Positions 29-58,345 of a stretch of DNA of 64,000 nt are shown here, piece after piece; position 1 is the first letter of the stretch, and each line of letters opens with the position of its first letter. Under the pieces are notes generated by a model. The model was not told the DNA's origin and ran no database searches. It saw only the letters and a program-made list of their open reading frames with translations. The position numbers and the translations under genes were made by a program. Location: the IMG/VR virus record IMGVR_UViG_3300030419_006315; one strand, written 5' to 3'. Source of the DNA: an uncultured virus (IMG/VR IMGVR_UViG_3300030419_006315). Lineage: Duplodnaviria > Heunggongvirae > Uroviricota > Caudoviricetes.

Positions 29-988
29 ATGCGCGCCAATGGCAGCCCCTACTCAGCACTCAGAGTTAGACGGGCAATGGAGGACCCTGCGGATATGTAT
101 TTGGCATATCTAAATGCAGTCGATGAGCTTTTTGTAACAGATTATTTGTTTAAGAGAGGCTTGGTAAAGACAATTAGATCGTTTGATGAGTACATGCAGC
201 ATTATTTGCGTTACATCAAGGACAGAATAGATCTTTTCCCCATGACAAAAACAGGGTTTGTAGCATCAAAGTTTTGCTCCCCTCTCTGTACTGGCCTGGT
301 GATAGAGATAAATGGCGAAGACCACTCCTCCGACATGCCAAAGAAAGATAACTATCTTATGGATCAAAATTTTGAAATAGCCAGGAACACAGCAGAGCAA
401 TTTGGATTCATGATGGATAAGAATGCTCCTTGGCGATTCACTGCCGACCTTGCCAGTCCTTTTATACAACGTCACGCGGAGAAATATGGAGTAAAAGAAT
501 CTCCTGGTTCAGCGTCGAATATATTTGACACACACTATGACTTAGTGTATAATGATGATATAAAATTACTAAAAAGGTTCTTCTTGTCGTCTTATGGCTC
601 TTTCACAACAACTTTCCCAAACTACAGAGAGGAAAGTCTGGAATATGATAATGGAGAGCCATCTATCACGATAAAGCAAGGTCAGAGACAGGCTTACAGT
701 GCTGCAACTTACAGAGAGAAGTATAAAGACCCTTTCTGGTTTAACCTGTATGCAAGCCTTCGTTTGAGAGAGGCAAGAGTACCATTGACAAATGAGAGAA
801 GAAGTGTTATCCTTAAGAAAGTAAACTCGCTCTTGAAATATGGAGGCCCCATCCGAACTTTGAAAGTGATCAACGAGACAGTGCTAAGTTCTAGTCCAAA
901 TCGTTGGTGGATGGAGACTGCCGGAGGTCAGGAATCACAAACTGCAGACACTCAGCCGACCGCTGATGGAGATACACAAGGCTACTAA
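29..988 (+). CDS. hypothetical protein (true start may lie upstream)
   Basis: 319-aa ORF abutting the polymerase gene; no motif recognised. Confidence 0.6.
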   Translation: MRANGSPYSALRVRRAMEDPADMYLAYLNAVDELFVTDYLFKRGLVKTIRSFDEYMQHYLRYIKDRIDLFPMTKTGFVASKFCSPLCTGLVIEINGEDHSSDMPKKDNYLMDQNFEIARNTAEQFGFMMDKNAPWRFTADLASPFIQRHAEKYGVKESPGSASNIFDTHYDLVYNDDIKLLKRFFLSSYGSFTTTFPNYREESLEYDNGEPSITIKQGQRQAYSAATYREKYKDPFWFNLYASLRLREARVPLTNERRSVILKKVNSLLKYGGPIRTLKVINETVLSSSPNRWWMETAGGQESQTADTQPTADGDTQGY

Positions 989-2480: not shown

Positions 2481-3340
2481 ATATAGTAGGTCTTGGACAA
2501 GCAGGCTGCAACATAGCTGATAGGTTTGGTGAGCAAGAGGAATATCGCACTTACAAGATCGATAGTAGTGAATACACAAACCAGATTAACTATTACCAAC
2601 TTAAACAGCGCGATGACTTCCAAGATTATGAAAAGCATTCGTGTGATCTGCGAGAATACTTTAAGTCCATTGATGACGAAGTGTATTTCGCAGTGGCAGG
2701 TTCCGGCGACACTTCAGGAGCCTCTCTTTGGATTCTTGAACAGTTGAAAAGGTACAAGCCAAACATCTTATACGTTCAGCCAGATCTTGAATTACTAAGT
2801 GGCCAAGCGGCAATGAAAGAGAGAATCTTGAGAGGAGTGCTTCAGGAATATGCAAGGTCTGGACTTTTTGAAACAGCGTACTTGGTTGATAACATGATAG
2901 TTGAAAACTTCCTGGGTGACATCCCGGTCGCTGGATATTATGACGGCCTTAATGACATTATTGTTTCAACCTTTCATATGATAAACGTATTTGAAAATAC
3001 AGAACCTCTTATAGGCACAATTCAGAAACCACAAGAAAGTAGCAGGATTGCAACCATCGGTGTAGCTAGCTTTGAAAGCGGCGAGGAGAATTTATTTTAC
3101 CCATTTGATTTGGTAAGGGAGAAGGCATATTACTATGCGATCAATAAAGAAAAACTGGAGAGCGATGGAAGTTTAATTAAGAAGATAAAAACACAGATAA
3201 AGTCGAAAATGCAAGATAACGTCAGGGTTTCCTACGGTATCTTCCCCACAAACTATGAAGATGATTACATTTTTTGTAAAGCATACACATCCAAAGTACA
3301 ACTAGAAAAAGAAGAAGAAAAAGAAGAAAATAATTCTTGA
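2477..3340 (+). CDS. tubulin/FtsZ-family GTPase (PhuZ/TubZ-like, divergent)
   Basis: N-terminal IVGLGQAGCNIA loop, degenerate tubulin signature AGSGDTSGA, YLVDN, acidic C-terminal tail. Confidence 0.7.
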   Translation: MNIVGLGQAGCNIADRFGEQEEYRTYKIDSSEYTNQINYYQLKQRDDFQDYEKHSCDLREYFKSIDDEVYFAVAGSGDTSGASLWILEQLKRYKPNILYVQPDLELLSGQAAMKERILRGVLQEYARSGLFETAYLVDNMIVENFLGDIPVAGYYDGLNDIIVSTFHMINVFENTEPLIGTIQKPQESSRIATIGVASFESGEENLFYPFDLVREKAYYYAINKEKLESDGSLIKKIKTQIKSKMQDNVRVSYGIFPTNYEDDYIFCKAYTSKVQLEKEEEKEENNS

Positions 3341-3365
3341 CAAAGCGGTGTATGTTTGATACACT
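3337..3365 (+). promoter_or_regulatory. sigma70-type promoter upstream of the SSB gene
   Basis: TTGACA-17 nt-TACACT with extended -10 TG. Confidence 0.7.
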
Positions 3366-3428
3366 GTATTCAGATGGTTGGGAGATTAACCAACTATACT
3401 ATAGCTAAATGCAAACAAGGAGGCAAAC

Positions 3429-4187
3429 ATGGCTATTGATATGAGTAAGATGGCAGCTAAGAAACAGGCTCTTGAGAACCGTGGTAACGGAAGCAAGGGT
3501 AACTTTTGGCGCCCAGATGACGGAGAGACTACGATTCGTATTCTCCCCACAGCGGACGGAGACCCCTTCAAGGAGTTCTTCTTCCATTATAACGTAGGCA
3601 AGAATCCTGGGTTCTTGTCCCCCAAGAAGAACTTTGGCGAGGAAGATCCGTTGGACACTTTCGTTCGCAACTTGTTCAACGAGGGTGATGACGAATCCAT
3701 TAAGATGGCGAAGTCCCTCATGGCTCGTCAACGCTTCTTCTCTCCCGTGATCGTTCGCGGCGAGGAAGACAAGGGCGTACAGATTTGGGGCTACGGCAAG
3801 ATGGTTTATCAAAACCTTCTTAACCTCGTTCTCAATCCGGATTATGGTGATATCACCGATCCTGAGAGTGGCACTGACTTGGTTATCCATTACGGAAAGC
3901 CTGCAGGTGCTCAATTCCCGCAGACGAAGATTACGCCTCGTCGTAAGTCTTCTGCTCTGTCGGATGACGCTCAAACGACGGAATGGTTGGAAGCGATTCC
4001 TGACTTTAACGATCTCTTTGAGCGAAAGACCCCTGAGGAGGTCGGCGCGTTGCTGGACGAATTCCTCTCTACGGATCAGTCTGCAGAGAACGACTCCAGC
4101 GAGACAACTCGCTACAGTTCCGGACCACAAGCGACCGGAGCCGCATCGTCTGTCGATGATGCATTCAATGAACTGCTAGGAGCCTAG
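3429..4187 (+). CDS. single-stranded DNA-binding protein, T4 gp32-like
   Basis: FWRP..TIRILP, GVQIWGYGKMVY, YGDITDPESGTDL, acidic tail ending DDAFNELL; SD AAGGAGG. Confidence 0.8.
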   Translation: MAIDMSKMAAKKQALENRGNGSKGNFWRPDDGETTIRILPTADGDPFKEFFFHYNVGKNPGFLSPKKNFGEEDPLDTFVRNLFNEGDDESIKMAKSLMARQRFFSPVIVRGEEDKGVQIWGYGKMVYQNLLNLVLNPDYGDITDPESGTDLVIHYGKPAGAQFPQTKITPRRKSSALSDDAQTTEWLEAIPDFNDLFERKTPEEVGALLDEFLSTDQSAENDSSETTRYSSGPQATGAASSVDDAFNELLGA

Positions 4188-4196
4188 TGGTCCATT

Positions 4197-4231
4197 CCCC
4201 GCAGGGAGGCATGGGGTTATACAGATGCCTC
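4197..4231 (+). ncRNA. putative structured RNA motif (H-type pseudoknot), copy 1
   Basis: CCCC-GCAGG-GAGGCAT-GGGG-TTATACAG-ATGCCTC; stems CCCC/GGGG and GAGGCAT/ATGCCTC. Confidence 0.55.
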
Positions 4232-4254
4232 AACTTTTATATAAGGAGAGAATT

Positions 4255-4617
4255 GTGAATTTGTTGACAAGTACCATCTTAGCTGTTTGTTTGGCCGTTG
4301 GCTTTACATCCTGCTTCGATGAAAAGTCCAACCTTTCAGTGGCTACCGAAGGAGAAGGAGAGGAAGGCGAGAGTGAAGGGCCTGTTATCGTAGGAGAAGG
4401 CGAAGGCGAGGGAGAAGGCGAGAGTGTAGCTGAAGGTGAAGCTGAAGAGAATGCTCAGGAAGGCGAGGGCGAGATCACAAGAGCGGTCGATTTTCGGGAA
4501 TGTTTTGAAGATTGCATGGATGAAAACGACGATGTTGAATCTTGCCGCCTTGGTTGCGCCGAAGCTCGTGGTGACGGCGGAGCCAATCGACCAGATAGAG
4601 GGGACGAGGGCGAATAA
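4255..4617 (+). CDS. putative lipoprotein with Glu-Gly repeats and a 4-Cys helical domain
   Basis: GTG start after SD AAGGAG; signal peptide ending GFTSC; EGEGEG repeats. Confidence 0.65.
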   Translation: MNLLTSTILAVCLAVGFTSCFDEKSNLSVATEGEGEEGESEGPVIVGEGEGEGEGESVAEGEAEENAQEGEGEITRAVDFRECFEDCMDENDDVESCRLGCAEARGDGGANRPDRGDEGE

Positions 4618-4623
4618 CTTCAC

Positions 4624-4656
4624 ATCCGCAGGAAGGCACGGGATTACAGGTGCCTT
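4624..4656 (+). ncRNA. putative structured RNA motif (H-type pseudoknot), copy 2
   Basis: ATCC-GCAGG-AAGGCAC-GGGAT-TACAG-GTGCCTT; compensatory changes relative to copy 1. Confidence 0.55.
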
Positions 4657-4680
4657 ATTTATTTAACAAAGGAGTTACAG

Positions 4681-5148
4681 ATGAGCTTGCAGAGTAAATT
4701 GAGAGAAGCAGAACTAAACGAAGATCACCGTATCACTCTAACGTATGAGACTGGAGCGGATGTTATTCATGCATTTGATGACTACGTTGAAGACGTTTTG
4801 CAACACACCGATTTTACCGATCGTGTTGCTGAGGTGATTACATTTACAGGTTTTAAGAACGAGGCAATTAAGGAATTGCGCAACGGCTTTGAGGATTTCC
4901 TTGCGGATTATCCTCGCGACGGATCCGGTTTTGAATCTTATGTTTCAGAAGTATTGGCTGATAACATTTACGATTTTAATTTCATTGATAGAACGGTCGA
5001 GCAATATGATTTTAAGCGCGGGTTCTTGACTCTTGAGGCCAGTGTTGAAACGACAGTAGGAGAGATCATGGCAGCCCCAGAACATCTCTTTTCCGGATGG
5101 AGCACTCGTGTCAGCACCAAGATCGGAGAACTGAAGATCGATGGCTAG
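4681..5148 (+). CDS. hypothetical protein
   Basis: 155-aa ORF with SD AAGGAG; overlaps recA start. Confidence 0.7.
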   Translation: MSLQSKLREAELNEDHRITLTYETGADVIHAFDDYVEDVLQHTDFTDRVAEVITFTGFKNEAIKELRNGFEDFLADYPRDGSGFESYVSEVLADNIYDFNFIDRTVEQYDFKRGFLTLEASVETTVGEIMAAPEHLFSGWSTRVSTKIGELKIDG

Positions 5149-6265
5149 CAACGGAAAGGTAAGTATCGCAGAGATGCGCAAACTTCTCAATAAGAAGGCC
5201 GGCGGGAGTGTCGCCTACAATCTTAATGAGGACAACCCTACCGATGTTAAGAAATGGATTCCAACTGGCTCACGCTGGTTGGATTCTATTATATGCAGAG
5301 GTAAACAAGCCGGCATCCCCATGGGGAAGATCGTAGAGATTGCGGGATTGGAATCAACTGGTAAGTCTTACATGGCCAGTCAAATCGCATCCAATGCTCA
5401 GAAGATGGGAATTGATGTGGTGTATTTTGATTCCGAGTCTGCACTTGATTCTTCTTTCTTGGAGAAGGCTGGTTGTGACGTAGACAACGTTCTTTACGTC
5501 CAGGCTACTAGCGTCGAAGCGGTGCTTGAATATATTGAGGAGTTGCTGGGAACGGGGAATCAATTCTTGTTTGTTTGGGACTCTCTTGCGTTCACGCCGA
5601 GCAAGTCTGACATTGAAGGAGACTTCAATCCATTGTCCAGTATGGCTGTGAAGCCTCGGATTCTTTCAAAGGGTTTGTCGAAACTTGTGCAGCCAATTGC
5701 CAATAGTTCTTCGACGTTGCTGATTCTTAATCAGTTGAAAACCAATATCACTTCGAATGTTGCAGAGGCAATGACAACACCTTACTTCACTCCTGGCGGC
5801 AAAGCATTAAACTATTCTTATTCGCTCAGAGTTTGGCTAACAGGCCGCAAGGCTAAAGCTAGTTTTATTACCGATGAGAACGGCTTCAGGATTGGCTCAG
5901 AGGTTAAGGCTAAGATTGAGAAGTCTCGTTTTGGAACCCAAGGTCGTATCTGTACGTTTAAAATTGTGTGGGGCGGAGAGGATGTTGCAATTCGAGATGA
6001 GGAGTCTTGGTTTGAGGCGATCAAATCCTCAGAACACTTGACCAATGCTGGTGCCTGGTTTAGTCTACACTTTGAAGATGGCAAGGTGGAGAAGTTTCAA
6101 AAAGCCACATGGCTTGACAAACTTCAGGATAAAAAGTTCCACGAACGAGTACTTCAAATTATGGACGAGGAAGTTATCTTGAAGTTTGAAAACAAGACTG
6201 GCAAGGCAGATGACTTTTACGCTTTGGAGGAGGAGCAGGAAGCTGCTTCTGCAGAGAAGGCATGA
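5141..6265 (+). CDS. recA: RecA/UvsX recombinase
   Basis: IPTGS..LD, GKIVEIAGLESTGKS Walker A, YFDSE, VWDS, LNQL, TPGGKAL. Confidence 0.93.
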   Translation: MASNGKVSIAEMRKLLNKKAGGSVAYNLNEDNPTDVKKWIPTGSRWLDSIICRGKQAGIPMGKIVEIAGLESTGKSYMASQIASNAQKMGIDVVYFDSESALDSSFLEKAGCDVDNVLYVQATSVEAVLEYIEELLGTGNQFLFVWDSLAFTPSKSDIEGDFNPLSSMAVKPRILSKGLSKLVQPIANSSSTLLILNQLKTNITSNVAEAMTTPYFTPGGKALNYSYSLRVWLTGRKAKASFITDENGFRIGSEVKAKIEKSRFGTQGRICTFKIVWGGEDVAIRDEESWFEAIKSSEHLTNAGAWFSLHFEDGKVEKFQKATWLDKLQDKKFHERVLQIMDEEVILKFENKTGKADDFYALEEEQEAASAEKA

Positions 6266-7218: not shown

Positions 7219-7421
7219 GACGCATCCGCGTCGGAGATTTGGTCAAGGCTCGTGAAGAACTTGATGTACCATATGATCCTATCGAAGGATTAGGAATAGT
7301 TATTGACATTGAGCCCTGGGGAGAGTATAATATACATGTTATTTACTTCTTCGAGCCAAGAGTCATTAGGTGGTTTGAAGAAGAGGATTTAATTTTAGTA
7401 AATTCAGCAAAAGAGGAATAA
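7215..7421 (+). CDS. small xVGDLV-family protein (SH3/KOW-like)
   Basis: IRVGDLVK...GLGIVID pattern shared with the genes at 56-64 kb. Confidence 0.6.
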   Translation: MRRIRVGDLVKAREELDVPYDPIEGLGIVIDIEPWGEYNIHVIYFFEPRVIRWFEEEDLILVNSAKEE

Positions 7422-10467: not shown

Positions 10468-11308
10468 GATATATTTTCTCACTGACATGCACGCAGATGC
10501 TGCAGCATTCAGGCGCAGCATGGAGCGTTGCGAAAAAGATTCCATAATCGTAATCGGCGGAGATACTTTCGATAAAGGTCCAAGCAACCTTGAACTTTTA
10601 AGGGAATATAAAAAGTTTATACGTGACGGTTGGAACTTTAAGTTTGTAATTGGCAACCACGATGTACGCCAATATATGGTGTTAAAATATTGGTTTCAAC
10701 AAGGGGATCCCAAATATGCCGCGGCCTTTACTGCTAAGAGGTTTAGGTCTAGGATCAACCCTTTGCTCCACGAATGTGGTGGCATCGAGAAAGCACAACA
10801 AATGTTCCTGTCGGCTGACGGCGAGTTTAACTGGTTCTTCAGGGACCAGCTTTTAATTTATAGAAACAATTCTTTTGCTTTCGTGCACGCAGGAATCTCT
10901 GATTTACTTGCGGAAACAATTGAGCAAACAAGCGTGTTCTCAATCAACCTCAGGTTCAGGGCGATGATGAACGCGGATCCGTTTGCCTTGTATTATGGAT
11001 CATTGGGTTCCGCAATTCGAACAAAGTATCGCGACAATGACTTTGCTTTCACCCCTCACGGCACTGCCACTTTGCGTAAAACAGGTATCAGTGCGATTGT
11101 CAGTGGCCACTTCAATGTTTTGGATGGCCACGAACTCAAGATCATGAATGGGACACCACAGTTTTTTTGTGATTGCGTCGTTGACAGCGCCTCTAGAAAA
11201 AAGTATAATATGAAAACTCCCGGCTGGGCAGTTTTAGAGATCAACCCTCACACCCGAAAAATAATCGGGAGAAGTTCAGAAAAGACCTTGACACTTTATG
11301 AAGAATAG
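10445..11308 (+). CDS. metallophosphoesterase (Ser/Thr phosphatase-like)
   Basis: TDMH, GDTFDKGP, GNHD, FVHAG, SGH. Confidence 0.88.
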   Translation: MLKFPDSKIYFLTDMHADAAAFRRSMERCEKDSIIVIGGDTFDKGPSNLELLREYKKFIRDGWNFKFVIGNHDVRQYMVLKYWFQQGDPKYAAAFTAKRFRSRINPLLHECGGIEKAQQMFLSADGEFNWFFRDQLLIYRNNSFAFVHAGISDLLAETIEQTSVFSINLRFRAMMNADPFALYYGSLGSAIRTKYRDNDFAFTPHGTATLRKTGISAIVSGHFNVLDGHELKIMNGTPQFFCDCVVDSASRKKYNMKTPGWAVLEINPHTRKIIGRSSEKTLTLYEE

Positions 11309-11817: not shown

Positions 11818-11891
11818 TGGCTCATAGCTCAACTGGTTAGAGCACGCTTCTTATAAGGGTGAGGTTCCGGGTTCAAGCCCCGGTGAGCCAA
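11818..11891 (+). tRNA. tRNA-Ile (anticodon TAT)
   Basis: cloverleaf: TGGCTCA/TGAGCCA acceptor, GCTC/GAGC D stem, loop CT-TAT-AA, CCGGG-TTCAAGC-CCCGG T arm; CCA not encoded. Confidence 0.88.
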
Positions 11892-19074: not shown

Positions 19075-19948
19075 TATAGGAATAGTGGGCAATGGGTTCG
19101 TGGGCTCTGCAGTAGCTTACGGTTTCTCTTCACAGTGTGGCTGCGAGGCCACTGTACGCATATACGACAAGCAAGAAGAAAAGTCTTTTTGCACACTAGA
19201 AGAAACCGTAAATGAATCGGACTTCATATTCTTGTCAGTGCCCACACCTTCAAATGAAGATGGTACGATATACTTGGGCATAGTTGAGAAAGCTCTCGAA
19301 GAGATCAATGAAGTAAACGACAATGACAGAAACGTTGTACTAGTGAGGTCAACTGTGACCCCTGGCACAACACGAGCGCTGAGCGAGAAGTTTCCAAACT
19401 TGAGGATCGTGTTCAATCCGGAGTTCCTTACGGAGAGGTCGGCAAAGTTTGACTTTATTAATCAATCTCGTTTTATTATCGGAGGTCCGGACCCCTCGGC
19501 CCAGAGCGTTCAAGATGTCGCAAACTTATTTAAATGGAGGTTTGGACAATCAACTCCTGTGATTGCTTGTAACTACGAGACTGCAGAAATTATTAAATAT
19601 ATGAATAATTGCTTCTTTGCACTTAAGGTGTCTTTCTTGAATGAAATGCGACTACTTGCAGACGAGTGTAATGTTGATTGGGATACTGCAATTGACGGGT
19701 TTGTCCGAGACGGAAGGATTGGGCATTCACACTTGCAAGTTCCGGGTCCGGATGGAAAGTGGGGCTTTGGTGGCTCCTGTTTTCCCAAGGATATCAGGGC
19801 GATGGTAGGTTTTGGTAAAGAGAAGGGCGTAGATATGAGGACTCTGGCCGCGGCCTGGGAGACTAATTTACAAGTACGCCCTGAAAGAGATTGGGAAAAG
19901 CTTCTAGGACGTTCGGTTATAAAAAAAGGAGAAGACGATGCTAGCTGA
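19061..19948 (+). CDS. UDP-glucose/GDP-mannose dehydrogenase family protein
   Basis: GIVGNGFVG, SVPTP, RSTVTPGT, NPEFL, KY.NN, GFGGSCFPKD. Confidence 0.9.
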   Translation: MENCNIGIVGNGFVGSAVAYGFSSQCGCEATVRIYDKQEEKSFCTLEETVNESDFIFLSVPTPSNEDGTIYLGIVEKALEEINEVNDNDRNVVLVRSTVTPGTTRALSEKFPNLRIVFNPEFLTERSAKFDFINQSRFIIGGPDPSAQSVQDVANLFKWRFGQSTPVIACNYETAEIIKYMNNCFFALKVSFLNEMRLLADECNVDWDTAIDGFVRDGRIGHSHLQVPGPDGKWGFGGSCFPKDIRAMVGFGKEKGVDMRTLAAAWETNLQVRPERDWEKLLGRSVIKKGEDDAS

Positions 19949-20927
19949 TGTGGTTGTGGATTTACAGTATGGAGATTGTGGAAAGGGCAAAGTGACGAAC
20001 CACTTGTGTAAAACTGAGGATTATACTCATGTGATAAGATATAATGGTGGCTGTAATGCTGGGCACACTATTTATCACAATGGAAGAAAAGTTATTACGC
20101 ATCACATTCCCGCAGGCGTGCTTCATGGCATTAAATCTATTATTGGCCCTGGCTGCGTTGTGTTTCCTGATCAGTTCTTCGCTGAAATCAAAGAACTCGA
20201 AGAAGCAGGAATACCCGCTCGACGATTTGTCGGTATTGCAAGCAATACGCATGTCATCACACGAGACCACCTCCATGAGGATGGAAAAGACAGTGCTATT
20301 GGAACAACAAAGCGGGGCAATGGCCCTGCCTACCGAGACAAATACGCGAGAAGTGGAGTAAGAGCAGAGAGTGTACCAGAACTTCAAGAATTTATTGTTG
20401 ACATTTATGATGAGCTTCACAACCAGACTGAGGAAGTTAAAATTCTTTTTGAGGGAGCACAAGGATTTGGCCTTGATGTTGATTGGGGTGATTATCCTTA
20501 TGTCACTTCCTCTCATTGCACTAGTGCTTCTGCACTCCTTAATGGCGTCCCTCCCCAATCCATAAGAAACATTTACGGCGTTGCAAAGATGTATGAAACT
20601 TATGTTGGAGCAAAAAGTTTTCATGGTGAGGGCAAGATTTTTGACATGCTAAGAGATGCTGGCGAAGAATACGGTGCAACTACTGGACGCCCCCGCCAAT
20701 GCAACTGGATGAATTGGGAACTTTTGACCAAAGCCATCAACATTAATGGCGTCACTGACTTGATCTTAAACAAGGTGGATGTGCTAGAAGAAGTCGACAC
20801 TTTTAAGATAATCAAAGATGAAAAGGTCATGGAATTCAACTGCTTGACTTCTATGCAACATTTTATAACAAAAAACGTCAAAAAAGATGTTAATGTTGTA
20901 TTTAGTTCCAATAAGGAAACAATATAA
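19938..20927 (+). CDS. purA: adenylosuccinate synthetase (short form)
   Basis: QYGDCGKGK, GG.NAGHT, IGTTKRGNGPAY.DK, EGAQG..LD, YPYVTSS, GATTGRPR. Confidence 0.9.
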   Translation: MLADVVVDLQYGDCGKGKVTNHLCKTEDYTHVIRYNGGCNAGHTIYHNGRKVITHHIPAGVLHGIKSIIGPGCVVFPDQFFAEIKELEEAGIPARRFVGIASNTHVITRDHLHEDGKDSAIGTTKRGNGPAYRDKYARSGVRAESVPELQEFIVDIYDELHNQTEEVKILFEGAQGFGLDVDWGDYPYVTSSHCTSASALLNGVPPQSIRNIYGVAKMYETYVGAKSFHGEGKIFDMLRDAGEEYGATTGRPRQCNWMNWELLTKAININGVTDLILNKVDVLEEVDTFKIIKDEKVMEFNCLTSMQHFITKNVKKDVNVVFSSNKETI

Positions 20928-22270: not shown

Positions 22271-23153
22271 TCCACACGATCATATTGTGGGTGTTATACC
22301 GTTGGCGGGATTTGAGTCGGATTTCAAATTTCCATGGCCTGACTGTATGCAGCCAATTTCCGACAATTATCTAGCAATCGAGAGATCTGTCGTTGAGTGC
22401 GCCTATGCTGGGTGCGACACGATATGGATTGTGTGTAACGACGATATACAACCCTTGATAAGACATCGGTTGGGTGAGTATGTGCAAGATCCGGTTTGGC
22501 TCATGCGACCGTTTCAAAAAAACGCTTTTCAAAACCAAAAGCCAATTCCGATATTTTATGTTCCGATAAACCCTAGACACCGAGGCAAGATAGATTGCTA
22601 TGCTTGGAGTATAATGCAGGGGGCAAGAATGGCCTGGTTTATGGCTCATAAGATGAGCAAGTGGATTGTGCCGAGGAAATATTATGTATCATATCCGCAT
22701 GGCCTATATCCTCCAGAGATCTTGAGAGAACATAGAAAGACCATCCGCAATAAAGATCTCTTCTACCTATCACACAATGGTAAAACATTTAAAGACGGAG
22801 AGTATCTAGGCTTTGCATTCAGAGAAGAGGATTATAAGAAGTTCTTGAAAGTCATCCGCAGTGGCACAGGTATATGGGACCCAGATGGCTTCGAGTATGG
22901 TGGGAAAAATAAGTTGTTGCCGCCCGGGCAGAAGAATTCGGCGACAAAATTTTCTCTTGACAAAGTGTTTAAAGATGCTATACTAGAGGACGGAAATGAG
23001 ATAGAAGTTCCTTGGTTTTATCCGATCGATAATTGGGAAAATTTAAAGAAGTTTTTAGGGTCAGAAGAGTCGAATTTACTTGCAAGACCATCCAAGCATA
23101 TGTTACAATATAAAGAGTTCAATCCGATAGGAATCGATAATGAAGAAGAGTGA
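22263..23153 (+). CDS. sugar-phosphate nucleotidyltransferase-like protein (divergent)
   Basis: VGVIPLAG...P.C.QPI...IERSV.EC..AG.DTIWIV resembles the NTP_transferase N-terminus but lacks GTR. Confidence 0.55.
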   Translation: MSSPHDHIVGVIPLAGFESDFKFPWPDCMQPISDNYLAIERSVVECAYAGCDTIWIVCNDDIQPLIRHRLGEYVQDPVWLMRPFQKNAFQNQKPIPIFYVPINPRHRGKIDCYAWSIMQGARMAWFMAHKMSKWIVPRKYYVSYPHGLYPPEILREHRKTIRNKDLFYLSHNGKTFKDGEYLGFAFREEDYKKFLKVIRSGTGIWDPDGFEYGGKNKLLPPGQKNSATKFSLDKVFKDAILEDGNEIEVPWFYPIDNWENLKKFLGSEESNLLARPSKHMLQYKEFNPIGIDNEEE

Positions 23154-25155
23154 ATCAAACATCCCCTTTGTGGGCCTCCACGCCCATTCTAACGCTAGTA
23201 TTTTCGATGGGTTAGGGTATCCGGGGGAGCACATGGACTATGCCTTCTCGACGGGACAGGACGCCTTAGCGTTGACCGATCATGGCAATATGAACAACCT
23301 TGCATACCAAGTTATGCACGCAAAGAAGATGAAGAAGGACGGCAAGGAGTTCAAGCCCATTTATGGTTGTGAAGCGTACTTCATCCCCTCCATTTCCAAG
23401 TGGAAAAAGGAGGTTGAAGCTCTTAGCGAGAAAAAGAAGACAAAAGAGGAGATTGGTACTTTCGTAGAAGACGAAAGCCGCGAAAAGAAGAAGAATATTT
23501 TGCGACAGCGAGCACACATGATCTTGTTGGCGCAAAACGAGGAAGGCTTGAGCAATCTTTTTAAGCTCGTCTCCGAAAGCTACAAGGAAGAGAACTTTTA
23601 TCGGTATCCCCGTATTGATTATCGATTGCTAAAGAAGTATAACAAGGGGATTATCGCTGCTAGCGCATGTCTTGGCGGCGTCTATGCTCAAGACTATTGG
23701 AATAACCGCGATGATGGAGACACTGCCATCATGAATGCGATGTACAAGACAACCGAACAGATGCAAGGTATCTTCGGCGATCGTTGGTATGGTGAGATCC
23801 AATGGAACAAGATTCCCGAACAACATGAATTGAACCAATATATTATCAAGACGTGCCAAAAGATGGGTGTGGAGTTGATTTCAACTGCCGATAGTCACTT
23901 TCCATCCCGCGATGCCTATAAGGACCGTGAATTGTATCGCCGACTTGGGTGGATTGGAAAATCGCGCCGTCCGGATTGGCTGTCCGCGGACCTTCCCGAT
24001 TCGATCGATGACATGGATTACGAATTGTATCCTAAGAATGGCGAAGCTATGTGGGAGTCGTACAAAAAAAGTTCGGCAGAACTCGGCTTCAAGTATGATG
24101 ACGATGTTGTGTTGAAATCGATTACTCGTACACACGATATTGCCCACCAAAGGATTGAGACCTTCTTTCCAGATTCGACCGTTCGCCTTCCTGACTTCGT
24201 TGTACCCGAAGGAGTCAGCGCTGATCAAGCCTTGGTGCAGTTCTGTGTTGATGGGCTGAAGCAGAAGGGGTTCAAGGACAATGAGGAGTACATTGCTCGA
24301 CTGAAACAAGAGATCAAAGTAATCCAGAAACGAGGTTTCTCGAAATACTTCTTGACGATGAAGGCCATTGCAGATAGGGCGGTTCAGGATCAGTTGGTTG
24401 GTCCTGGTCGAGGATCTGCTGCAGGTTCTTTGATCGCTTATGTGTTGGATATCACACAGGTTGATCCCATCAAGTACGGCTTGCAGTTCTCTCGCTTCCT
24501 CACCGAAGAGGGTGCAGGATACCCAGATATCGACTATGATGTGTCAGATCCGATGGTATTGAAGGAGAAGTTGATTGAGGAATGGGGCGACACCACCGTT
24601 GTTCCTATTTCAAACTGGAACACACTACAGCTTCGCAGTCTCATCAAAGACATTTCGAAGTTTTATGATATTCCATTCACCGAGGTCAACTATGTGACCG
24701 GCCGAATGCTTCACGAGGCAACTCCAGAGGCCAAAAAGGCACATGGTATCAAGGCTGGCGTCTATACACCAACATTTCAAGAGGTGATGTTGTATAGCAA
24801 GTCTTTGCAGGATTTTCTCAAGAAATATCCGAAGGTTGAGACACACATCAATGTCCTATATGGTCAGATTCGGTCTTGTTTTACTGACAAGGTGGGTATT
24901 TTGACTGACGATGGCTATAAGACCGTTGATGAGATTGAGACCGGGGATTTGGTTGCTTATTACGGAGAGGATAACCAAATTCATTACAATAGCGACTATG
25001 AGATCTATTTTCAGGGAACCAAGGAGGTTTATGAGGTTGAACTTGAAGATGGAAGCACCATAGAACTTACGGCCGACCACGAAGTTCTAACCCAAAATGG
25101 TTACAAGCAGGTGGCGAACCTCACAGAAGAAGATTGTATGTTTGGGGTGGCATAA
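23140..25155 (+). CDS. dnaE: DNA polymerase III alpha, N-terminal part fused to N-intein
   Basis: PHP motifs LHAHS, LTDHG, TADSH; GPGRGSAAGS; PDIDYD; ends in intein N-part. Confidence 0.93.
   Translation: MKKSESNIPFVGLHAHSNASIFDGLGYPGEHMDYAFSTGQDALALTDHGNMNNLAYQVMHAKKMKKDGKEFKPIYGCEAYFIPSISKWKKEVEALSEKKKTKEEIGTFVEDESREKKKNILRQRAHMILLAQNEEGLSNLFKLVSESYKEENFYRYPRIDYRLLKKYNKGIIAASACLGGVYAQDYWNNRDDGDTAIMNAMYKTTEQMQGIFGDRWYGEIQWNKIPEQHELNQYIIKTCQKMGVELISTADSHFPSRDAYKDRELYRRLGWIGKSRRPDWLSADLPDSIDDMDYELYPKNGEAMWESYKKSSAELGFKYDDDVVLKSITRTHDIAHQRIETFFPDSTVRLPDFVVPEGVSADQALVQFCVDGLKQKGFKDNEEYIARLKQEIKVIQKRGFSKYFLTMKAIADRAVQDQLVGPGRGSAAGSLIAYVLDITQVDPIKYGLQFSRFLTEEGAGYPDIDYDVSDPMVLKEKLIEEWGDTTVVPISNWNTLQLRSLIKDISKFYDIPFTEVNYVTGRMLHEATPEAKKAHGIKAGVYTPTFQEVMLYSKSLQDFLKKYPKVETHINVLYGQIRSCFTDKVGILTDDGYKTVDEIETGDLVAYYGEDNQIHYNSDYEIYFQGTKEVYEVELEDGSTIELTADHEVLTQNGYKQVANLTEEDCMFGVA
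24877..25152 (+). mobile_element. split intein N-fragment (92 aa)
   Basis: block A CFTDKVGILTDDG, block B IELTADHEVLT, then stop codon; acidic. Confidence 0.9.
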
Positions 25156-25163
25156 AAAGAGGC

Positions 25164-25208
25164 TATTACTATACCTCCTGCCTATTTATAATAGGAGGTA
25201 TGGTAGTA
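25164..25208 (+). promoter_or_regulatory. hairpin sequestering the homing endonuclease RBS
   Basis: TATTACTATACCTCCT / AGGAGGTATGGTAGTA stem (2 G-U); loop contains CCTATTTA. Confidence 0.75.
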
Positions 25209-26161
25209 TGTTTAAGTGTAAGATTTGTAGTATTGAGTTGAAGCGAGGGAGCGGCCACATAAAGGCAAAGCATCACATCTCTACATTGGAATACATAAGC
25301 GAGTATGAAGGGATAGATTGTTGCGCTATGTATGATGAAGGATACTCCGCTCAACAAATAGCAGATTTTATTAAAGAAAAGAGGCTGGGAGTTCGCCCAA
25401 TAAAAAAGGATGTGCTAGATTATTTGCGCTCTAAGCGAGTTGAGATTCGTAATACGTCAGCAGCCACGAAAGTTTGGATTCAAAAAGCCGGCGGCCCCTG
25501 GAATAAGGGTAAGACAAAAGAAGACCACCCGGGTATAATGAAGTATGCTGAATCGCGACGAGGCAAAAATAATCCGTATTATAAGCAAACGGAGGAAGCA
25601 AAGGCTAAAACTCGCTATTGGGAATACAAGAGCGAAGAAGAACTTGCGGACATCCGCCGAAGAGTCGGCGAGACGCTGAAAAAGAAGTATCGCACCGGCG
25701 AACTAGTGCCATACGCAGTTCTTAACCCGGAGTGGGGATCCGTCGCACATCGTAAGCGGATGGAGGGTTATAGAAGATGGGCGAAGGATGGGAACAAGGT
25801 TAAGTTTGGCAACACTTCGGCAGCGGAGCGGGAAATCGCATCAATCTTACAAGAAGAAGGAGTCAGACACATCAGGCAGTTTTCTCCGGGAAAGTATAGG
25901 TATGACTTTTGCGTGCCGGAAACAAACACGATCATAGAATACAATGGAACTTACTGGCACGCTGACCCAAGGAAGTATAAAGAAGATTACTATAACCAGA
26001 AAAAAGGGAAAACAGCCAAAGAAATGTGGGACTATGATAAGAAAAGGGTTGATTTTGCCACTGAGATGGGTTATACTGTGAATGTTGTTTGGGAAGAGGA
26101 CTACAAACGGCTCACGAAAGACGAAAAAAGGAAGTTGATTCTTGAAAGCATTAAAAGTTAA
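25208..26161 (+). CDS. free-standing Vsr-like (DUF559/EDxHD) homing endonuclease
   Basis: N-terminal CxxC..H..H, NUMOD-like PWNKGKTKE, C-terminal S..E...Q...YDF...IIEYNGTYWH...D..R...GY.V..VWE; SD AGGAGG. Confidence 0.85.
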   Translation: MFKCKICSIELKRGSGHIKAKHHISTLEYISEYEGIDCCAMYDEGYSAQQIADFIKEKRLGVRPIKKDVLDYLRSKRVEIRNTSAATKVWIQKAGGPWNKGKTKEDHPGIMKYAESRRGKNNPYYKQTEEAKAKTRYWEYKSEEELADIRRRVGETLKKKYRTGELVPYAVLNPEWGSVAHRKRMEGYRRWAKDGNKVKFGNTSAAEREIASILQEEGVRHIRQFSPGKYRYDFCVPETNTIIEYNGTYWHADPRKYKEDYYNQKKGKTAKEMWDYDKKRVDFATEMGYTVNVVWEEDYKRLTKDEKRKLILESIKS

Positions 26162-26276
26162 ATCAGTCAATAAACTGCGCGAAGATAAGGTTTTTGACAT
26201 TCATCACAAACTGGATCAAAAGCAGTTTCTAGAAGAACACCCAAATTTGATTGCGAATGGGTTTGTGATTTCAAAC
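26142..26276 (+). mobile_element. split intein C-fragment (45 aa)
   Basis: basic start KALKVKSVNK, block F KVFDI...HPNLIANG, block G FVISN followed by Cys+1. Confidence 0.9.
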
Positions 26277-27950
26277 TGCTCTAGGCACGCCGGCGGGGTG
26301 GTGATTGGTGAAGACCTAGACAAGCGTATGCCGCTTATCAATAGCAAGGGTGTGCGCCAAACTCCATGGACAGAAGGACAGAATGTTCGACATCTTGAGC
26401 CCATGGGTTTTATCAAGTTTGATATCCTGGGACTGGCTTCACTCCGCATGATGGAGTTGGCCATTCGTCATATTTTAAAAAGACATCACGGAAACCCGGA
26501 TCCGTCGTTTGATGATGTGAGAAAGTTCTACAATGAAAACCTACATCCAGAGGTCTTGAACTTTGCGGACCAGGAGGTTTATCAAAACATCTTTCACGAC
26601 GGTAGGTGGGTTGGCATCTTCCAGTTTACAGAAGGTGGTGCGCAAAAACTGTGCCAACGTGTTATGCCCACCAATTTGGTTGACTTGTCTGCTATTACAT
26701 CGATTTATCGTCCTGGCCCTTTGAGTGCGGGCGTTGACAAGGGTTATGTCGAAGCTCGACGTGATCCTGAGTTGGTCGAGTACCCTCACGAGCTTTTCAG
26801 ACAAGTCACCAAGGATACTGCCGGCTTCCTTATCTTTCAGGAACAAATTGCCGAGTTGGCCCACAAGTTGGGACGCAACCTAACTTTGGATGAGGGCAAC
26901 AAGCTAAGAAAACTATTGACCAAGAAGGGTGTTGCTGAGGTAGAGAAAGAAAAGAAGAAGATCAAGAAGAAGTTTATCGACGGCTGCAATCAGAAGAAGA
27001 TTGACTTTGCAACTTCTGAGAAGATTTGGGATTTGTTTGAATACTTCTCTGGTTACGGCTTTAACAAGTCTCACGCCATTTCTTATTCGATGCTGTCCTT
27101 TCAGTGTGCTTGGTTGATGAATTACTTTCCCATCGAGTGGGTAGCATCTTTCCTCGATAAGGAGCCAGAGGGTCGCAAGGAGCGTGCCATCAATCTCGCA
27201 CGAAAGTTCGGATTCAAGCTGCAGCCTCTAACAATCAACCATTCTGGTAAGGTGTGGGAGATTTCCGATGACAACGAGACGTTGATTCAACCACTTTCAA
27301 CCATTAAGGGGCTAGGTGACTCCGCAATTGATCAAATTATTGCTAATCGACCTTTCAATAATGTTGAGGAATTCATTTTCAACGAGGACATTGTTTATAG
27401 CAAGTTGAACAAAAAGGCTTTGGATGCTCTGTCGAGGGCAGGTGCATGCGATGCTCTGATTGATGATAGGTTCACAGGGGCGAAGCACTTCTGGACTGCA
27501 GTTGCCGTAGATCGTCCACGAAAAGAGAAAAACCTCATAGACAATATTGAGAAATACGCTGGCGAAGGCGAGTTTTCGGACGAGGAGCGCATTCAATATC
27601 TTGTTGATTTGACTGGTGTTTTTCCCTTCGATTTGGTGATGGACGATTATATATTGGGCCGCTTGGAGGACAACATGGTGCCTCCGTTGGGCGAGTGGGA
27701 TGACAACCTTGGAGTTGCCTGGTTTATCCCGAGAGAGATCATTCCTAAAAAGACCAAGAATGGCAAAACGTATTGGATTGTCAAAACGATTGATTCAACA
27801 AGTTCTTCAGAAGCTATCAAATGTTGGGGTGTTGACCCCAAGAGGGATAGTATTATTATTAATCGCCCCTATATGGCACGTTTAGAATATAGTGATCAGT
27901 GGGGCTTCAGTACAAGATCTATTAGACATAATTTCAGGATGCTAGGATGA
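26142..27950 (+). CDS. dnaE: C-intein fused to DNA polymerase III alpha, C-terminal part
   Basis: after the intein: CSRHAGGVVI, GFIKFDILGL, GIFQF, RPGPL, IFQEQ, FSGYGFNKSHA, HhH IKGLG. Confidence 0.93.
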   Translation: MKALKVKSVNKLREDKVFDIHHKLDQKQFLEEHPNLIANGFVISNCSRHAGGVVIGEDLDKRMPLINSKGVRQTPWTEGQNVRHLEPMGFIKFDILGLASLRMMELAIRHILKRHHGNPDPSFDDVRKFYNENLHPEVLNFADQEVYQNIFHDGRWVGIFQFTEGGAQKLCQRVMPTNLVDLSAITSIYRPGPLSAGVDKGYVEARRDPELVEYPHELFRQVTKDTAGFLIFQEQIAELAHKLGRNLTLDEGNKLRKLLTKKGVAEVEKEKKKIKKKFIDGCNQKKIDFATSEKIWDLFEYFSGYGFNKSHAISYSMLSFQCAWLMNYFPIEWVASFLDKEPEGRKERAINLARKFGFKLQPLTINHSGKVWEISDDNETLIQPLSTIKGLGDSAIDQIIANRPFNNVEEFIFNEDIVYSKLNKKALDALSRAGACDALIDDRFTGAKHFWTAVAVDRPRKEKNLIDNIEKYAGEGEFSDEERIQYLVDLTGVFPFDLVMDDYILGRLEDNMVPPLGEWDDNLGVAWFIPREIIPKKTKNGKTYWIVKTIDSTSSSEAIKCWGVDPKRDSIIINRPYMARLEYSDQWGFSTRSIRHNFRMLG

Positions 27951-58271: not shown

Positions 58272-58335
<64 letters not shown>

Positions 58336-58345
<10 letters not shown>

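What the first reader, a model, noticed from the sequence alone, without database searches (positions are those of the whole stretch)
4197..4656. Duplicated H-type pseudoknot RNA motif with compensatory base changes
Seen: two copies (4197-4231, 4624-4656) of CC-GCAGG-RAGGCAY-GGG-n-TACAG-RTGCCTY. Each lies just after a stop codon and about 12 nt before the next SD. Stem 2 covaries (GAGGCAT/ATGCCTC versus AAGGCAC/GTGCCTT) and stem 1 covaries (CCCC/GGGG versus ATCC/GGAT), while the loops GCAGG and TACAG are invariant, as expected for a ligand- or protein-binding RNA. I cannot match it to a riboswitch or ribozyme class I know. T4 gene 32 is autoregulated through a pseudoknot, and these copies directly follow a gp32-like gene, so SSB-linked translational control is one hypothesis.
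Basis: partly seen in the sequence, partly recalled or inferred. Interest (0 to 1): 0.72.

Follow-up and report, generated by a model that had tools for sequence, protein, structure and literature searches.

The report
Phage intergenic pseudoknot RNA family
The two repeats are copies of a small knotted RNA fold, conserved between genes beside the single-strand-DNA-binding protein gene of many uncultured marine phages; it sits where related phages carry an ordinary transcription stop signal, and its exact job is still unknown.

Summary
Both copies exist as described: 4195-4233 and 4622-4658 on the + strand. They belong to a large family. A covariance model found 83 copies in 56 of 80 related viral loci, all on the sense strand. 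It found 103 more in 68 of 80 loci retrieved by sequence pattern alone, giving 157 distinct sequences.

Compensatory changes support both helices. Stem 2 has 7 bp.

Rfam 15 has no match. Whole phage contigs of 83-201 kb carry only 1-4 copies, nearly all between the gp32-like SSB gene and the UvsX/RecA gene.

In relatives without the motif, the same SSB-UvsX slot holds an ordinary GC-rich terminator or a long hairpin. Genes inserted between SSB and UvsX occur only in phages that have the motif (31 of 39 against 0 of 21).

My best reading (0.4) is an intercistronic boundary element that attenuates, ends or 3'-stabilises the upstream message, and that also supplies homology for cassette shuffling, as PeSLs do. 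A protein operator, a riboswitch and a self-cleaving RNA are not excluded.

The SSB gene has its own, different conserved leader hairpin, so the SSB-autoregulation idea is not supported in that form.

The parts
3337..3365 (+). Sigma-70-type promoter of the SSB operon (TTGACA, 17-nt spacer, TACACT, with TG before the -10)
   Evidence: Consensus scan, 10 of 12 matches. Equivalent promoters lie upstream of SSB in related loci.
3374..3397 (+). Conserved hairpin in the SSB 5' leader (8-bp stem, 8-nt loop of the form GRNAUUNR). It is a separate element from the pseudoknot.
   Evidence: Alignment of 35 leaders. RNAalifold predicts 8 pairs, and all 8 show compensatory changes.
3429..4187 (+). gp32-like single-strand DNA-binding protein gene
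   Evidence: phrog_1192, E 2e-29. 494 viral stretches encode relatives.
4195..4233 (+). Pseudoknot copy 1.
- Stem 1, 5' strand: 4198-4200
- Loop 1: 4201-4205 (G4201 lies opposite G4213)
- Stem 2, 5' strand: 4206-4212
- Junction G: 4213
- Stem 1, 3' strand: 4214-4216
- Loop 3: 4217-4224
- Stem 2, 3' strand: 4225-4231
   Evidence: Covariance model hit, 48.1 bits, E 9.8e-12. Sequence. Pairing register.
4232..4254 (+). AU-rich spacer containing the Shine-Dalgarno sequence AAGGAG (4243-4248), ahead of the GTG start
   Evidence: Sequence. Across the family the spacer averages 75% A+U, against 63% for positions -25 to -1 of 68 window ORFs.
4255..4617 (+). Inserted accessory gene: a small acidic protein with a lipoprotein-type signal peptide (120 aa, GTG start)
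   Evidence: ORF. No PHROG or Pfam hit. The signal peptide and cysteine were read from the translation. Similar small lipoprotein genes follow the motif in other loci.
4622..4658 (+). Pseudoknot copy 2.
- Stem 1, 5' strand: 4625-4627 (A4624-T4644 is a possible fourth pair)
- Loop 1: 4628-4632
- Stem 2, 5' strand: 4633-4639
- Junction G: 4640
- Stem 1, 3' strand: 4641-4643
- Loop 3: 4644-4649
- Stem 2, 3' strand: 4650-4656
   Evidence: Covariance model hit, 55.6 bits, E 7.8e-14. Sequence.
4657..4680 (+). U-rich/AU-rich spacer containing the Shine-Dalgarno sequence AAGGAG (4669-4674), ahead of the ATG start
   Evidence: Sequence.
4681..5148 (+). 155-aa protein of unknown function. Its 3' end overlaps the UvsX start. 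This family follows the motif in 16 of 150 distinct instances.
   Evidence: No Pfam or PHROG hit. No lead from the protein atlas. Clustering.
5141..6265 (+). UvsX/RecA-type recombinase gene
   Evidence: phrog_97, E 9e-53; Pfam RecA, E 4e-36.

Best explanation
The two copies belong to an unnamed family of compact RNA pseudoknots, about 35 nt long. Some members carry an extra hairpin inserted in loop 3. The family is restricted to a lineage of uncultured marine phages; complete genomes here are 181-201 kb.

**What I think it is.** It is an intercistronic boundary element of the early SSB-recombinase operon. It usually starts 5-12 nt after the stop codon of the SSB gene or of an accessory gene, and it usually ends 18-31 nt before the next start codon.

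**How I think it works (inferred).** It acts in cis on the transcript. Stem 2 is a 7-bp GC-centred hairpin. Its large loop is tied back to the 5' flank by a short stem 1 and by conserved loop bases. Together they form a rigid 3' structure that attenuates or ends transcription where a U-run follows. In all cases it protects the upstream message from 3' decay. This would uncouple the amount of SSB message from that of the genes behind it. The tight stop-to-stem-1 spacing would also let a ribosome terminating upstream melt stem 1.

**Second role (inferred).** Because the element is repeated, it supplies homology for gain and loss of gene cassettes, as PeSLs do in T4-type phages.

**Shown:** the fold, its conservation, its locus specificity, its placement, its replacement by terminators in relatives, and its association with inserted genes.

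**Not shown:** any termination or stabilising activity, any sensing of the ribosome, and what reads the conserved loop bases.
For: - **The fold is real.** Paired cells are 94.2% and 94.1%, against 24-51% when the partners are slid. Six and 7 of the 11 pairs show changes on both sides. None of 500 shuffles reaches the observed values. Stem 1 was not part of the search model.
- **It acts on the sense strand.** All 83 hits in the SSB-anchored loci lie on the gene strand. G-U pairs are kept at one stem-2 position, in 15 of 59 and 30 of 89 sequences.
- **It is locus specific.** The window has 2 hits. Eight contigs of 84-201 kb have 1, 1, 1, 1, 2, 2, 2 and 4 hits. All of these lie beside or shortly downstream of SSB except one copy in G009.
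- **Relatives put a terminator in the same slot.** Of the 24 loci without the motif, one (L023) ends inside SSB. Of the other 23, by my reading, 16 show a GC-rich short-loop hairpin plus a T-run directly before the UvsX ribosome-binding site, 6 show a long hairpin, and 1 shows a hairpin followed by a tRNA-like sequence.
- **U-runs are commonest at the SSB/accessory-to-UvsX junction.** A run of at least 4 U within 12 nt of stem 2 follows 66% of the 38 copies before UvsX.
- **Some copies end a transcription unit.** They are followed by a sigma-70-type promoter rather than a ribosome-binding site. Examples are L046:1747-1783, L025:1586-1623, L221:1731-1766, which has a U6 run before the promoter, and L145. 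The copy in G009 lies 7 nt after an ATPase gene stop and more than 200 nt from the next gene.
- **Placement after the stop codon is tight.** The stop-to-stem-1 spacer is 5-12 nt in 114 of 150 distinct instances.
- **It goes with cassette insertion.** Genes lie between SSB and UvsX in 31 of 39 non-redundant loci with the motif and in 0 of 21 without it. The inserted genes are unrelated to one another: an FKBP-like gene (named from its sequence motif only), Hc1, Hsp20, a cold-shock-domain gene, and lipoprotein genes.
- **There is a precedent.** PeSL composite terminator/promoter repeats mediate modular shuffling in T4-type phages (abstract of PMC4122927; listing of PMC2839356).
Against: - **Many copies lack a U-run.** Only 43% of 150 distinct instances have a run of at least 4 U after stem 2. 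The figure is 22-25% before the FKBP-like and the 155-aa genes. Intrinsic termination therefore cannot be the universal activity.
- **The loop is too large for a standard terminator.** It is 10-12 nt, or up to about 60 nt with the inserted hairpin. The terminator scan did not call either window copy.
- **A passive hairpin would not need this much conservation.** The near-invariant loop bases, the G-G/A-A covariation, and two core variants co-occurring in one genome all point to a specific partner or chemistry that this explanation leaves open.
- **Placement is ambiguous in some copies.** In 19 of 150 instances the motif is far from, or has no, upstream stop codon but lies 14-36 nt from the next start. 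That fits a 5'-UTR role equally well.
- **One RNA-library contig runs through the motif.** A 237-nt contig covers a relative's motif with 83 and 120 nt on either side. This is weak, because DNA carry-over is possible and contigs do not show transcript ends.
- **The cassette association is not phylogenetically independent.**
Confidence: 0.4

Rival explanations
1. Translational operator. A phage protein, either the SSB as the first reader proposed or another RNA-binding protein, binds the pseudoknot. It then spreads over or blocks the AU-rich ribosome-binding region 18-31 nt downstream. This would co-regulate UvsX and the accessory genes, as the T4 gene 32 operator does.
For: - The layout, a stable knot followed by an AU-rich (75% A+U) spacer and then the SD and start codon, holds for 129 of 150 instances.
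- The conserved single-stranded bases and the purine-purine junction look like a protein recognition surface.
- The copies sit in an SSB/recombinase module.
- It has been reported that gp32 recognises an RNA pseudoknot in its own leader (passage in PMC10690425).
Against: - About 10% of copies have no ribosome-binding site nearby. They are followed by a promoter or a long spacer.
- The SSB gene's own leader carries a different conserved hairpin, found in phages with and without the motif.
- Relatives manage with a plain terminator at the same place.
- The downstream genes are unrelated to one another.
Confidence: 0.2
2. Self-cleaving or nuclease-targeted processing site. The knot is a very small ribozyme, or a specific RNase substrate. 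It cuts the polycistronic message between cassettes, doing by cleavage what the terminator does in relatives.
For: - The features resemble those of small ribozymes found in phage DNA. These include a pseudoknot with near-invariant unpaired bases and an optional extra stem with compensatory changes; four of the six variants folded give a 7-8 bp inserted stem with different sequences.
- The associated genes are heterogeneous.
- Several copies lie in tandem between genes, up to 4 within 2.3 kb in G011.
- It does not depend on a U-run.
- It occupies the same slot as a 3'-end-forming signal in relatives.
Against: - No known ribozyme class matches.
- At 35 nt it would be smaller than any natural self-cleaving class I can recall (this is recall, not a call).
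- An RNA-library contig bridges a relative's motif (weak).
- Nothing in the sequence identifies a cleavage site.
Confidence: 0.15
3. Riboswitch. The knot is a small-molecule or ion aptamer of the size class of preQ1-I and guanidine-III. It controls read-through or translation. The G-G and A-A core variants would be specificity variants.
For: - It has an H-type pseudoknot with conserved junction and loop bases, and a stem insertion is tolerated.
- The two core variants often occur in the same genome.
- Most copies lie in a 5'-UTR position.
Against: - The downstream genes share no metabolic theme. They include a recombinase, an FKBP-like gene (named from its sequence motif only), a histone-like gene, Hsp20, a cold-shock-domain gene and lipoprotein genes.
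- No cellular copies were found. Of 81 pattern matches in 185,579 species genomes, only 5 loci are real, and all are on MAG contigs of 2.8-49 kb whose genes look phage-like.
- There is no conserved alternative fold or expression platform.
- The Shine-Dalgarno sequence is not sequestered by the knot.
- No Rfam match.
Confidence: 0.1
4. It is only a recombination scar or homology box. The repeat has no RNA function and persists because it mediates or marks cassette insertion.
For: Copies flank the inserted genes, and such genes occur only in phages with the motif (31 of 39 against 0 of 21). This matches PeSL-like behaviour.
Against: - Compensatory changes in both stems, retained G-U pairs and strict strand bias show selection on a folded single strand.
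- The motif is conserved between phages whose SSBs are only 62-70% identical, while its flanks are not conserved.
Confidence: 0.05

Closest known systems
PeSL (promoter-early stem-loop) composite terminator/promoter cassettes of T4-type phages (PMC2839356, seen in a listing; PMC4122927, abstract read)
   Same: - Both are short conserved stem-loop repeats in intergenic regions that flank variable accessory ORFs.
- Both are associated with indels between related phages.
- A few copies here are directly followed by a sigma-70-type promoter.
   Different: - Most copies here have no promoter. They are followed within 36 nt by the next start codon (129 of 150).
- This element is a pseudoknot with conserved loops and covarying stems, not a plain hairpin.
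- There are only 1-4 copies per genome, concentrated at the SSB-UvsX junction.
- The phage lineage is different: no cultured relative has an SSB more than 35% identical.
Rho-independent terminators at the SSB-UvsX junction of sister phages
   Same: - Same position and strand, and the same tight packing between the SSB stop codon and the UvsX ribosome-binding site.
- A GC-centred stem, -10.5 to -12.3 kcal/mol for the two window copies.
- A U-run follows in 43% of copies.
   Different: - The loop is 10-12 nt or much longer, tied into a pseudoknot.
- The loop sequence is conserved across phages whose SSBs are only 62-70% identical to the window's.
- More than half of the copies have no U-run.
T4/T2 gene 32 mRNA autoregulatory pseudoknot
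   Same: - H-type topology.
- A second stem of 7 bp that abuts the 3' strand of the first stem (from recall of the T2 structure).
- An AU-rich unstructured stretch follows, leading to a ribosome-binding site.
- The context is an SSB gene.
   Different: - This element lies downstream of the SSB gene, ahead of other genes or of promoters.
- Loop 1 has 4-5 conserved bases rather than 1.
- Stem 1 has only 3 bp.
- The spacer is 18-31 nt, not about 40.
- The SSB leader here has its own hairpin.
- There is no sequence similarity, and binding is untested.
Small H-type pseudoknot riboswitches (guanidine-III, preQ1-I, SAM-II)
   Same: The size (about 35-40 nt), the two-stem knot, the conserved loop bases at the helical junction, and the 5'-UTR placement of most copies.
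   Different: - No covariance-model match.
- The Shine-Dalgarno sequence is not part of the knot.
- The gene associations are heterogeneous.
- It is found only in phages.
Unnamed candidates DNAVirus_1121 and DNAVirus_8655 in the catalogue of 10,006 viral structured-RNA candidates (PMC10690425)
   Same: Both are marine Caudovirales candidates of 55 and 58 nt, with 22 and 10 sequences. Both lie within 25 bp upstream of RecA-domain genes, and RNIE does not call either a terminator (supplement rows). Either could overlap this motif.
   Different: - Identity could not be checked, because the alignment files (supplements 1 and 2) were not readable.
- The catalogue lists one covarying base pair for each candidate. 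The rows and passages I saw give no pseudoknot and no function.
- Alternatively, these candidates may be the plain terminators of the sister phages.
Intercistronic REP stabilisers and the RNase III sites between phage T7 early genes (both from recall)
   Same: These are repeated structured elements between genes of one operon. They define or protect 3' ends and set unequal expression of the neighbouring genes.
   Different: The folds and sequences are different. Neither activity has been shown here.

Membership tests
Any Rfam 15 family (riboswitch, ribozyme, leader, sRNA) | A covariance-model match at or near the family's gathering score | tested here: not met
   The window at gathering score gives only 3 tRNAs. 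Region 4100-4750 at E<=10 gives two chance-level hits of 19 and 14.5 bits, against cut-offs of 60 and 43. Six related loci that hold many copies give 0 hits at E<=1.
T4 gene 32 autoregulatory operator | It lies in the 5' leader of the SSB gene itself | tested here: not met
   The motif lies after the SSB stop codon. The SSB leader carries a different conserved hairpin.
T4 gene 32 autoregulatory operator | An H-type pseudoknot followed by an unstructured AU-rich tract that reaches the ribosome-binding site | tested here: inconclusive
   The pseudoknot is supported. The spacer is 75% A+U but only 18-31 nt long. About 10% of copies have no ribosome-binding site nearby.
T4 gene 32 autoregulatory operator | Specific binding by the phage SSB, with translational repression | not testable with these tools
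   No RNA-protein binding tool is available. This needs a gel-shift or toeprint experiment.
Rho-independent (intrinsic) terminator | A GC-rich stem with a short loop (about 3-8 nt) | tested here: not met
   The stem qualifies (7 bp, -10.5 and -12.3 kcal/mol). The loop does not: it is 10-12 nt, or up to about 60 nt. Neither copy was called by the scan.
Rho-independent (intrinsic) terminator | A U-tract directly after the stem | tested here: inconclusive
   A run of at least 4 U within 12 nt occurs in 43% of 150 distinct instances: 66% before UvsX and 22% before the FKBP-like genes.
Rho-independent (intrinsic) terminator | It occupies the position at the end of a gene or transcription unit | tested here: met
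   The stop-to-stem-1 spacer is 5-12 nt in 114 of 150 instances. Relatives have canonical terminators in the same slot. Some copies are followed by promoters.
PeSL mobile regulatory cassette | A conserved stem-loop repeat that flanks variable ORFs and is associated with indels | tested here: met
   Arrays of the form motif-gene-motif are seen. Inserted genes occur in 31 of 39 loci with the motif against 0 of 21 without it.
PeSL mobile regulatory cassette | The stem-loop is fused to an early sigma-70-type promoter | tested here: not met
   Only 9 of the 34 instances with a distant or uncalled next start have a promoter-like site by my scan. The other 129 of 150 instances have a start codon within 36 nt. 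No sigma-70 spacing fits inside the motif (inspection).
Metabolite riboswitch | A consistent association with genes of one pathway or transport function | tested here: not met
   Genes downstream of the 150 distinct instances are UvsX 38, FKBP-like 18, the 155-aa unknown 16, two small-protein clusters 8 and 6, other 60, and none 4. The other contexts include Hsp20, cold-shock-domain and Hc1 genes.

The most novel reading that the evidence does not exclude
The knot is a new class of active RNA rather than a passive hairpin. In this reading a 35-nt pseudoknot, with an optional third stem, either cleaves itself or switches on binding a ligand or a phage protein. It would thereby release or cut the SSB message from the cassettes behind it. 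The G-G and A-A core variants, which co-occur in single genomes, would then be specificity or activity variants. If it is catalytic, it would be among the smallest natural self-cleaving motifs.
Probability: 0.2. Interest if true: 0.85.

Novelty: new variant of a known kind. Interest (0 to 1): 0.62.

Why it matters
- **A strongly supported structured RNA with no name.** There are 157 distinct sequences, a pseudoknot proven by covariation, an optional extra stem and two core variants. It occurs in an abundant marine phage lineage: the window's sequence is held by runs from 10 studies.
- **A natural experiment.** One genomic slot, between the SSB and recombinase genes, is filled by an ordinary terminator in some phages and by a conserved knot in others. 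Only the phages with the knot have acquired accessory genes there.
- **What working it out would give.** It would show either a new way for phages to set expression ratios inside an operon and to shuffle cassettes, or, in the bolder reading, a new ribozyme, riboswitch or protein-operator class.
- **It is cheap to test.** The element is only 35 nt long, so it is easy to synthesise, probe and put into reporters.

Tried and rejected
- **Loose fixed-spacing pattern in the window.** It gave 9 matches against 10.8 expected and missed copy 2, so it was uninformative. The covariance model replaced it.
- **The window's own assembly is not held.** The nearest record, G001, is a 46-kb fragment with no hit.
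- **blastn of the 2-kb region and of the 43-nt motif against GenBank phages.** The first gave nothing and the second gave only chance 20-22-nt matches.
- **Closest cultured relative.** This is Microcystis phage Mel-JY01, with SSB 34% identical. Its SSB and RecA genes are 8 nt apart, and the model finds no hit in its 190 kb. No experimental system was found.
- **Z-genome idea.** I asked whether a PurZ-like gene, by stabilising the rU-template hybrid, would make U-tract terminators fail and so explain the knot. This is rejected. The PurZ-like gene is present in G003 (motif) and in G007 (plain terminator), and absent from complete G004 (motif).
- **Cellular copies.** 81 pattern matches were found in species genomes, but only 5 loci are real motif hits. 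The rest are GC-rich chance matches.
- **Reads.** All runs are kept as contigs, and only three RNA runs were available, covering 2 to 5 of the 30 depth bins each. They say nothing about transcript ends, and the uncovered parts are not evidence.
- **Ideas rejected on inspection.**
  - A sigma-70 promoter inside the motif: the -35-like TTTACA lies only 11-12 nt from TATAAA-like boxes.
  - Sequestration of the downstream Shine-Dalgarno sequence by the CCUC of stem 2: the complementarity is not consistent.
  - A G-quadruplex: the fourth G-tract is not conserved.
  - A CC/GG mini-hairpin in place of stem 1: it is contradicted by the GC/GC double change in L039, L064 and G009.
  - An integron attC-like site: there are no core sites and no integrase.
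  - A readthrough or frameshift stimulator: the stop-to-knot phase varies, and the element follows many unrelated genes.
- **The 155-aa protein.** The atlas search gave no lead, so its role, including any as a recombination mediator, stays open.
- **Catalogue alignments.** The alignments of PMC10690425 (supplement files 1 and 2) could not be read. I cannot say whether DNAVirus_1121 or DNAVirus_8655 is this motif.
- **Earlier notes of this scan.** Nothing was on record.
- **Literature searches.** None found a description of this motif. That is all the claim 'not in print' rests on.
Full report
**1. The observation**

- Copy 1 follows the TAG stop codon of a gp32-like SSB gene (3429-4187; phrog_1192). 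It precedes AAGGAG and a GTG start at 4255, which opens a small acidic lipoprotein-like ORF.
- Copy 2 follows that ORF's TAA stop codon (4615-4617). It precedes AAGGAG and the ATG at 4681 of a 155-aa ORF, whose end overlaps a UvsX/RecA gene (5141-6265).

I built a covariance model (R1) from 35 distinct related sequences (A1). Only stem 2 was specified as structure. In the window the model scores the two copies at 48.1 and 55.6 bits, and nothing else above 8.7 bits. The duplication is therefore far beyond chance.

**2. It is a family**

A search with the SSB protein found 494 viral stretches, of which the best 80 were kept. These are 62-100% identical to the window's SSB.
- R1 finds 83 copies in 56 of the 80 loci. 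All are on the SSB strand, with 1-3 copies per locus.
80 were fetched as loci, and R1 confirmed 103 copies in 68 of them.
- In total there are 157 distinct motif sequences.
- Rfam 15 has no match. The window at gathering score gives nothing but tRNAs. The region at E<=10 gives two chance-level hits. Six related loci at E<=1 give none.

**3. The fold**

I counted pairs for the pseudoknot I named, on the model-made alignments. Stem 1 was not part of the model.
- Paired cells are 94.2% (59 distinct rows) and 94.1% (89 distinct rows). With slid partners the figure is 24-51%. None of 500 shuffles reaches the observed values.
- Stem 2 has 7 bp. Four pairs show double changes, one alternates G-C with G-U, and the central pairs G-C and C-G never vary.
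- Stem 1 has three Watson-Crick pairs. The outer pair takes all four Watson-Crick types. One C-G pair becomes G-C in a sub-lineage (L039, L064) and in a copy in G009. That change excludes the alternative CC/GG mini-hairpin.
- The register leaves the first G after stem 2 opposite the first base of loop 1. These two positions covary as G/G 125, A/A 15, A/G 4, G/A 0 among 145 sequences, 1 with a gap. This looks like a purine-purine pair at the helical junction.
- A-A variants usually also carry one extra base in loop 3, and they often occur in the same genome as G-G copies.
- A subgroup carries an extra hairpin inserted in loop 3. Four of the six variants folded give a 7-8 bp inserted stem with different sequences, and a fifth gives a longer, interrupted one.
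- G-U pairs and the strict strand bias place the selection on the sense single strand, that is, on the RNA.

**4. Where it sits**

- Whole contigs of 83-201 kb carry 1-4 copies, beside or shortly downstream of SSB. The exception is a second copy in complete G009, 41 kb away. It lies 7 nt after an AAA-ATPase-like ORF's stop codon (my reading of the translation; no family search was run) and more than 200 nt from the next gene.
- Of the 75 loci with hits that were found without reference to SSB, 61 have SSB and/or UvsX within 1.5 kb.
- The other loci show arrays next to Hsp20, cold-shock-domain, Hc1, ClpP or DnaB-like genes.
- In 185,579 species genomes, only 5 of 81 pattern matches are real. 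All are on MAG contigs of 2.8-49 kb whose genes look phage-like. I conclude the motif is confined to phages.
- Among 150 distinct instances, the stop-to-stem-1 spacer is 5-12 nt in 114. The distance from stem 2 to the next start is mostly 18-31 nt. The spacer is 75% A+U.
- Upstream genes: the SSB family accounts for 98 of the 186 hits.
- Downstream genes, of the 150 distinct instances: UvsX 38, an FKBP-like gene 18 (named from its sequence motif only), the 155-aa family 16, two small-protein clusters 8 and 6, other genes 60 (including lipoprotein- and membrane-protein-like genes), and none 4.

**5. The key comparison**

Of the 24 loci without the motif, one (L023) ends inside SSB. By my reading, the other 23 show one of three things at the SSB-UvsX junction:
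- a textbook intrinsic terminator, with a G/C-run stem, a short loop and a T-run, directly before the UvsX ribosome-binding site (16 loci);
- a long hairpin, four of which have a UUCCCCC loop (6 loci);
- a hairpin followed by a tRNA-like sequence (1 locus).

The knot therefore fills a slot that relatives fill with a 3'-end signal. Several copies end a transcription unit.
- In L046 the order is motif, FKBP-like gene, motif, lipoprotein gene, motif, sigma-70 promoter, SSB leader, SSB, plain terminator, UvsX.
- L025, L221 and L145 show a motif followed, with or without a U-run, by a promoter.

Genes inserted between SSB and UvsX occur in 31 of 39 non-redundant loci with the motif and in 0 of 21 without it. 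This count is not phylogenetically independent.

**6. What argues against a simple terminator**

- Only 43% of instances have a run of at least 4 U after stem 2. The figure is 66% before UvsX and 22-25% before the FKBP-like and 155-aa genes.
- The loop is too long for a standard terminator, and the scan does not call either window copy.
- The conserved loops and the two core variants point to a specific partner or chemistry.
- In 19 of 150 instances the motif is far from, or has no, upstream stop codon but close to the next start. In 14 the reverse holds.
- An RNA-library contig runs through a relative's motif. This is weak evidence.

**7. The SSB hypothesis**

The SSB gene has a sigma-70-type promoter (3337-3365). 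It also has a conserved leader hairpin (window 3374-3397) in which all 8 pairs covary. That hairpin is found in phages with and without the knot. It is the more natural candidate for SSB autoregulation.

The knot could still bind SSB, but nothing here shows that it does. Copies that have no ribosome-binding site nearby do not fit a purely translational role.

**8. Verdict**

The motif is real, widespread and unnamed.
- My best-supported reading (0.4) is an intercistronic boundary element. It attenuates or ends transcription, or stabilises the 3' end of the upstream message. Its repetition also drives PeSL-like cassette shuffling (abstract of PMC4122927).
- The rivals are a protein operator (0.2), a processing site or ribozyme (0.15), a riboswitch (0.1), and pure recombination homology (0.05).

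It may already be listed anonymously. Two marine candidates upstream of RecA genes appear in the catalogue of PMC10690425 (supplement rows), but their alignments could not be read.

I searched the literature four times and found no description of this motif.

Noticed in passing
window 3374-3397 (and the SSB leaders of L001-L080): A conserved hairpin lies in the 5' leader of the SSB gene, just downstream of its promoter. It has an 8-bp stem in which all 8 pairs show compensatory changes, and an 8-nt loop of the form GRNAUUNR. It is present in phages with and without the pseudoknot. It is a candidate SSB autoregulatory or mRNA-stabilising element, and Rfam has no match for it.
   Followed up: partly
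L052, L057, L061, L080 (the 100-140 nt after the SSB stop codon): At the SSB-UvsX junction these relatives carry a long hairpin whose large loop contains a conserved UUCCCCC. This is a third kind of element in the same slot.
   Followed up: no
window 19938-20927: This ORF matches PHROG 1211, described as '2-aminooxy adenylosuccinate synthetase' (E 4.5e-70). From recall, this family is PurZ-like, the enzyme of 2-aminoadenine DNA synthesis. Thymidylate synthase, dUTPase, and thymidylate and guanylate kinase genes lie nearby. The gene is present in G003 and G007 but absent from complete G004, so it does not track the motif.
   Followed up: partly
window 23140-27950 (also 989-2176): A DNA polymerase (phrog_405) is split into two ORFs, 23140-25155 and 26142-27950, by an HNH/homing-endonuclease ORF at 25097-26161. 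A further family-A polymerase-like ORF lies at 989-2176.
   Followed up: no
window 35979-37547: A phage-encoded GroEL-type chaperonin (phrog_5725, E 4e-149). The accessory genes next to the motif in relatives include other chaperone-like genes (FKBP-like, Hsp20, cold-shock domain).
   Followed up: no
window 525-553, 7303-7331, 11181-11209: Three perfect sigma-70 consensus promoters (TTGACA, 17-nt spacer, TATAAT) on the + strand. They suggest a host with a standard sigma-70 and an early or middle operon organisation.
   Followed up: no
window 4255-4617: The inserted gene encodes a signal peptide with a cysteine, followed by a long run of Glu-Gly repeats. Equivalent small acidic lipoprotein-like genes, unrelated in sequence, fill the same slot in other phages.
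   Followed up: partly
L221 1130-2200; L241; L275: MAG-binned contigs carry arrays of 2-4 motif copies that separate Hsp20, a 70-80-aa protein, a cold-shock-domain protein and an Hc1 histone-like protein. This is the same punctuation in a different gene neighbourhood.
   Followed up: partly
window 11818-11891 (+), 58272-58345 (-), 58824-58896 (-): Three tRNA genes (Rfam RF00005, 61-74 bits).
   Followed up: no
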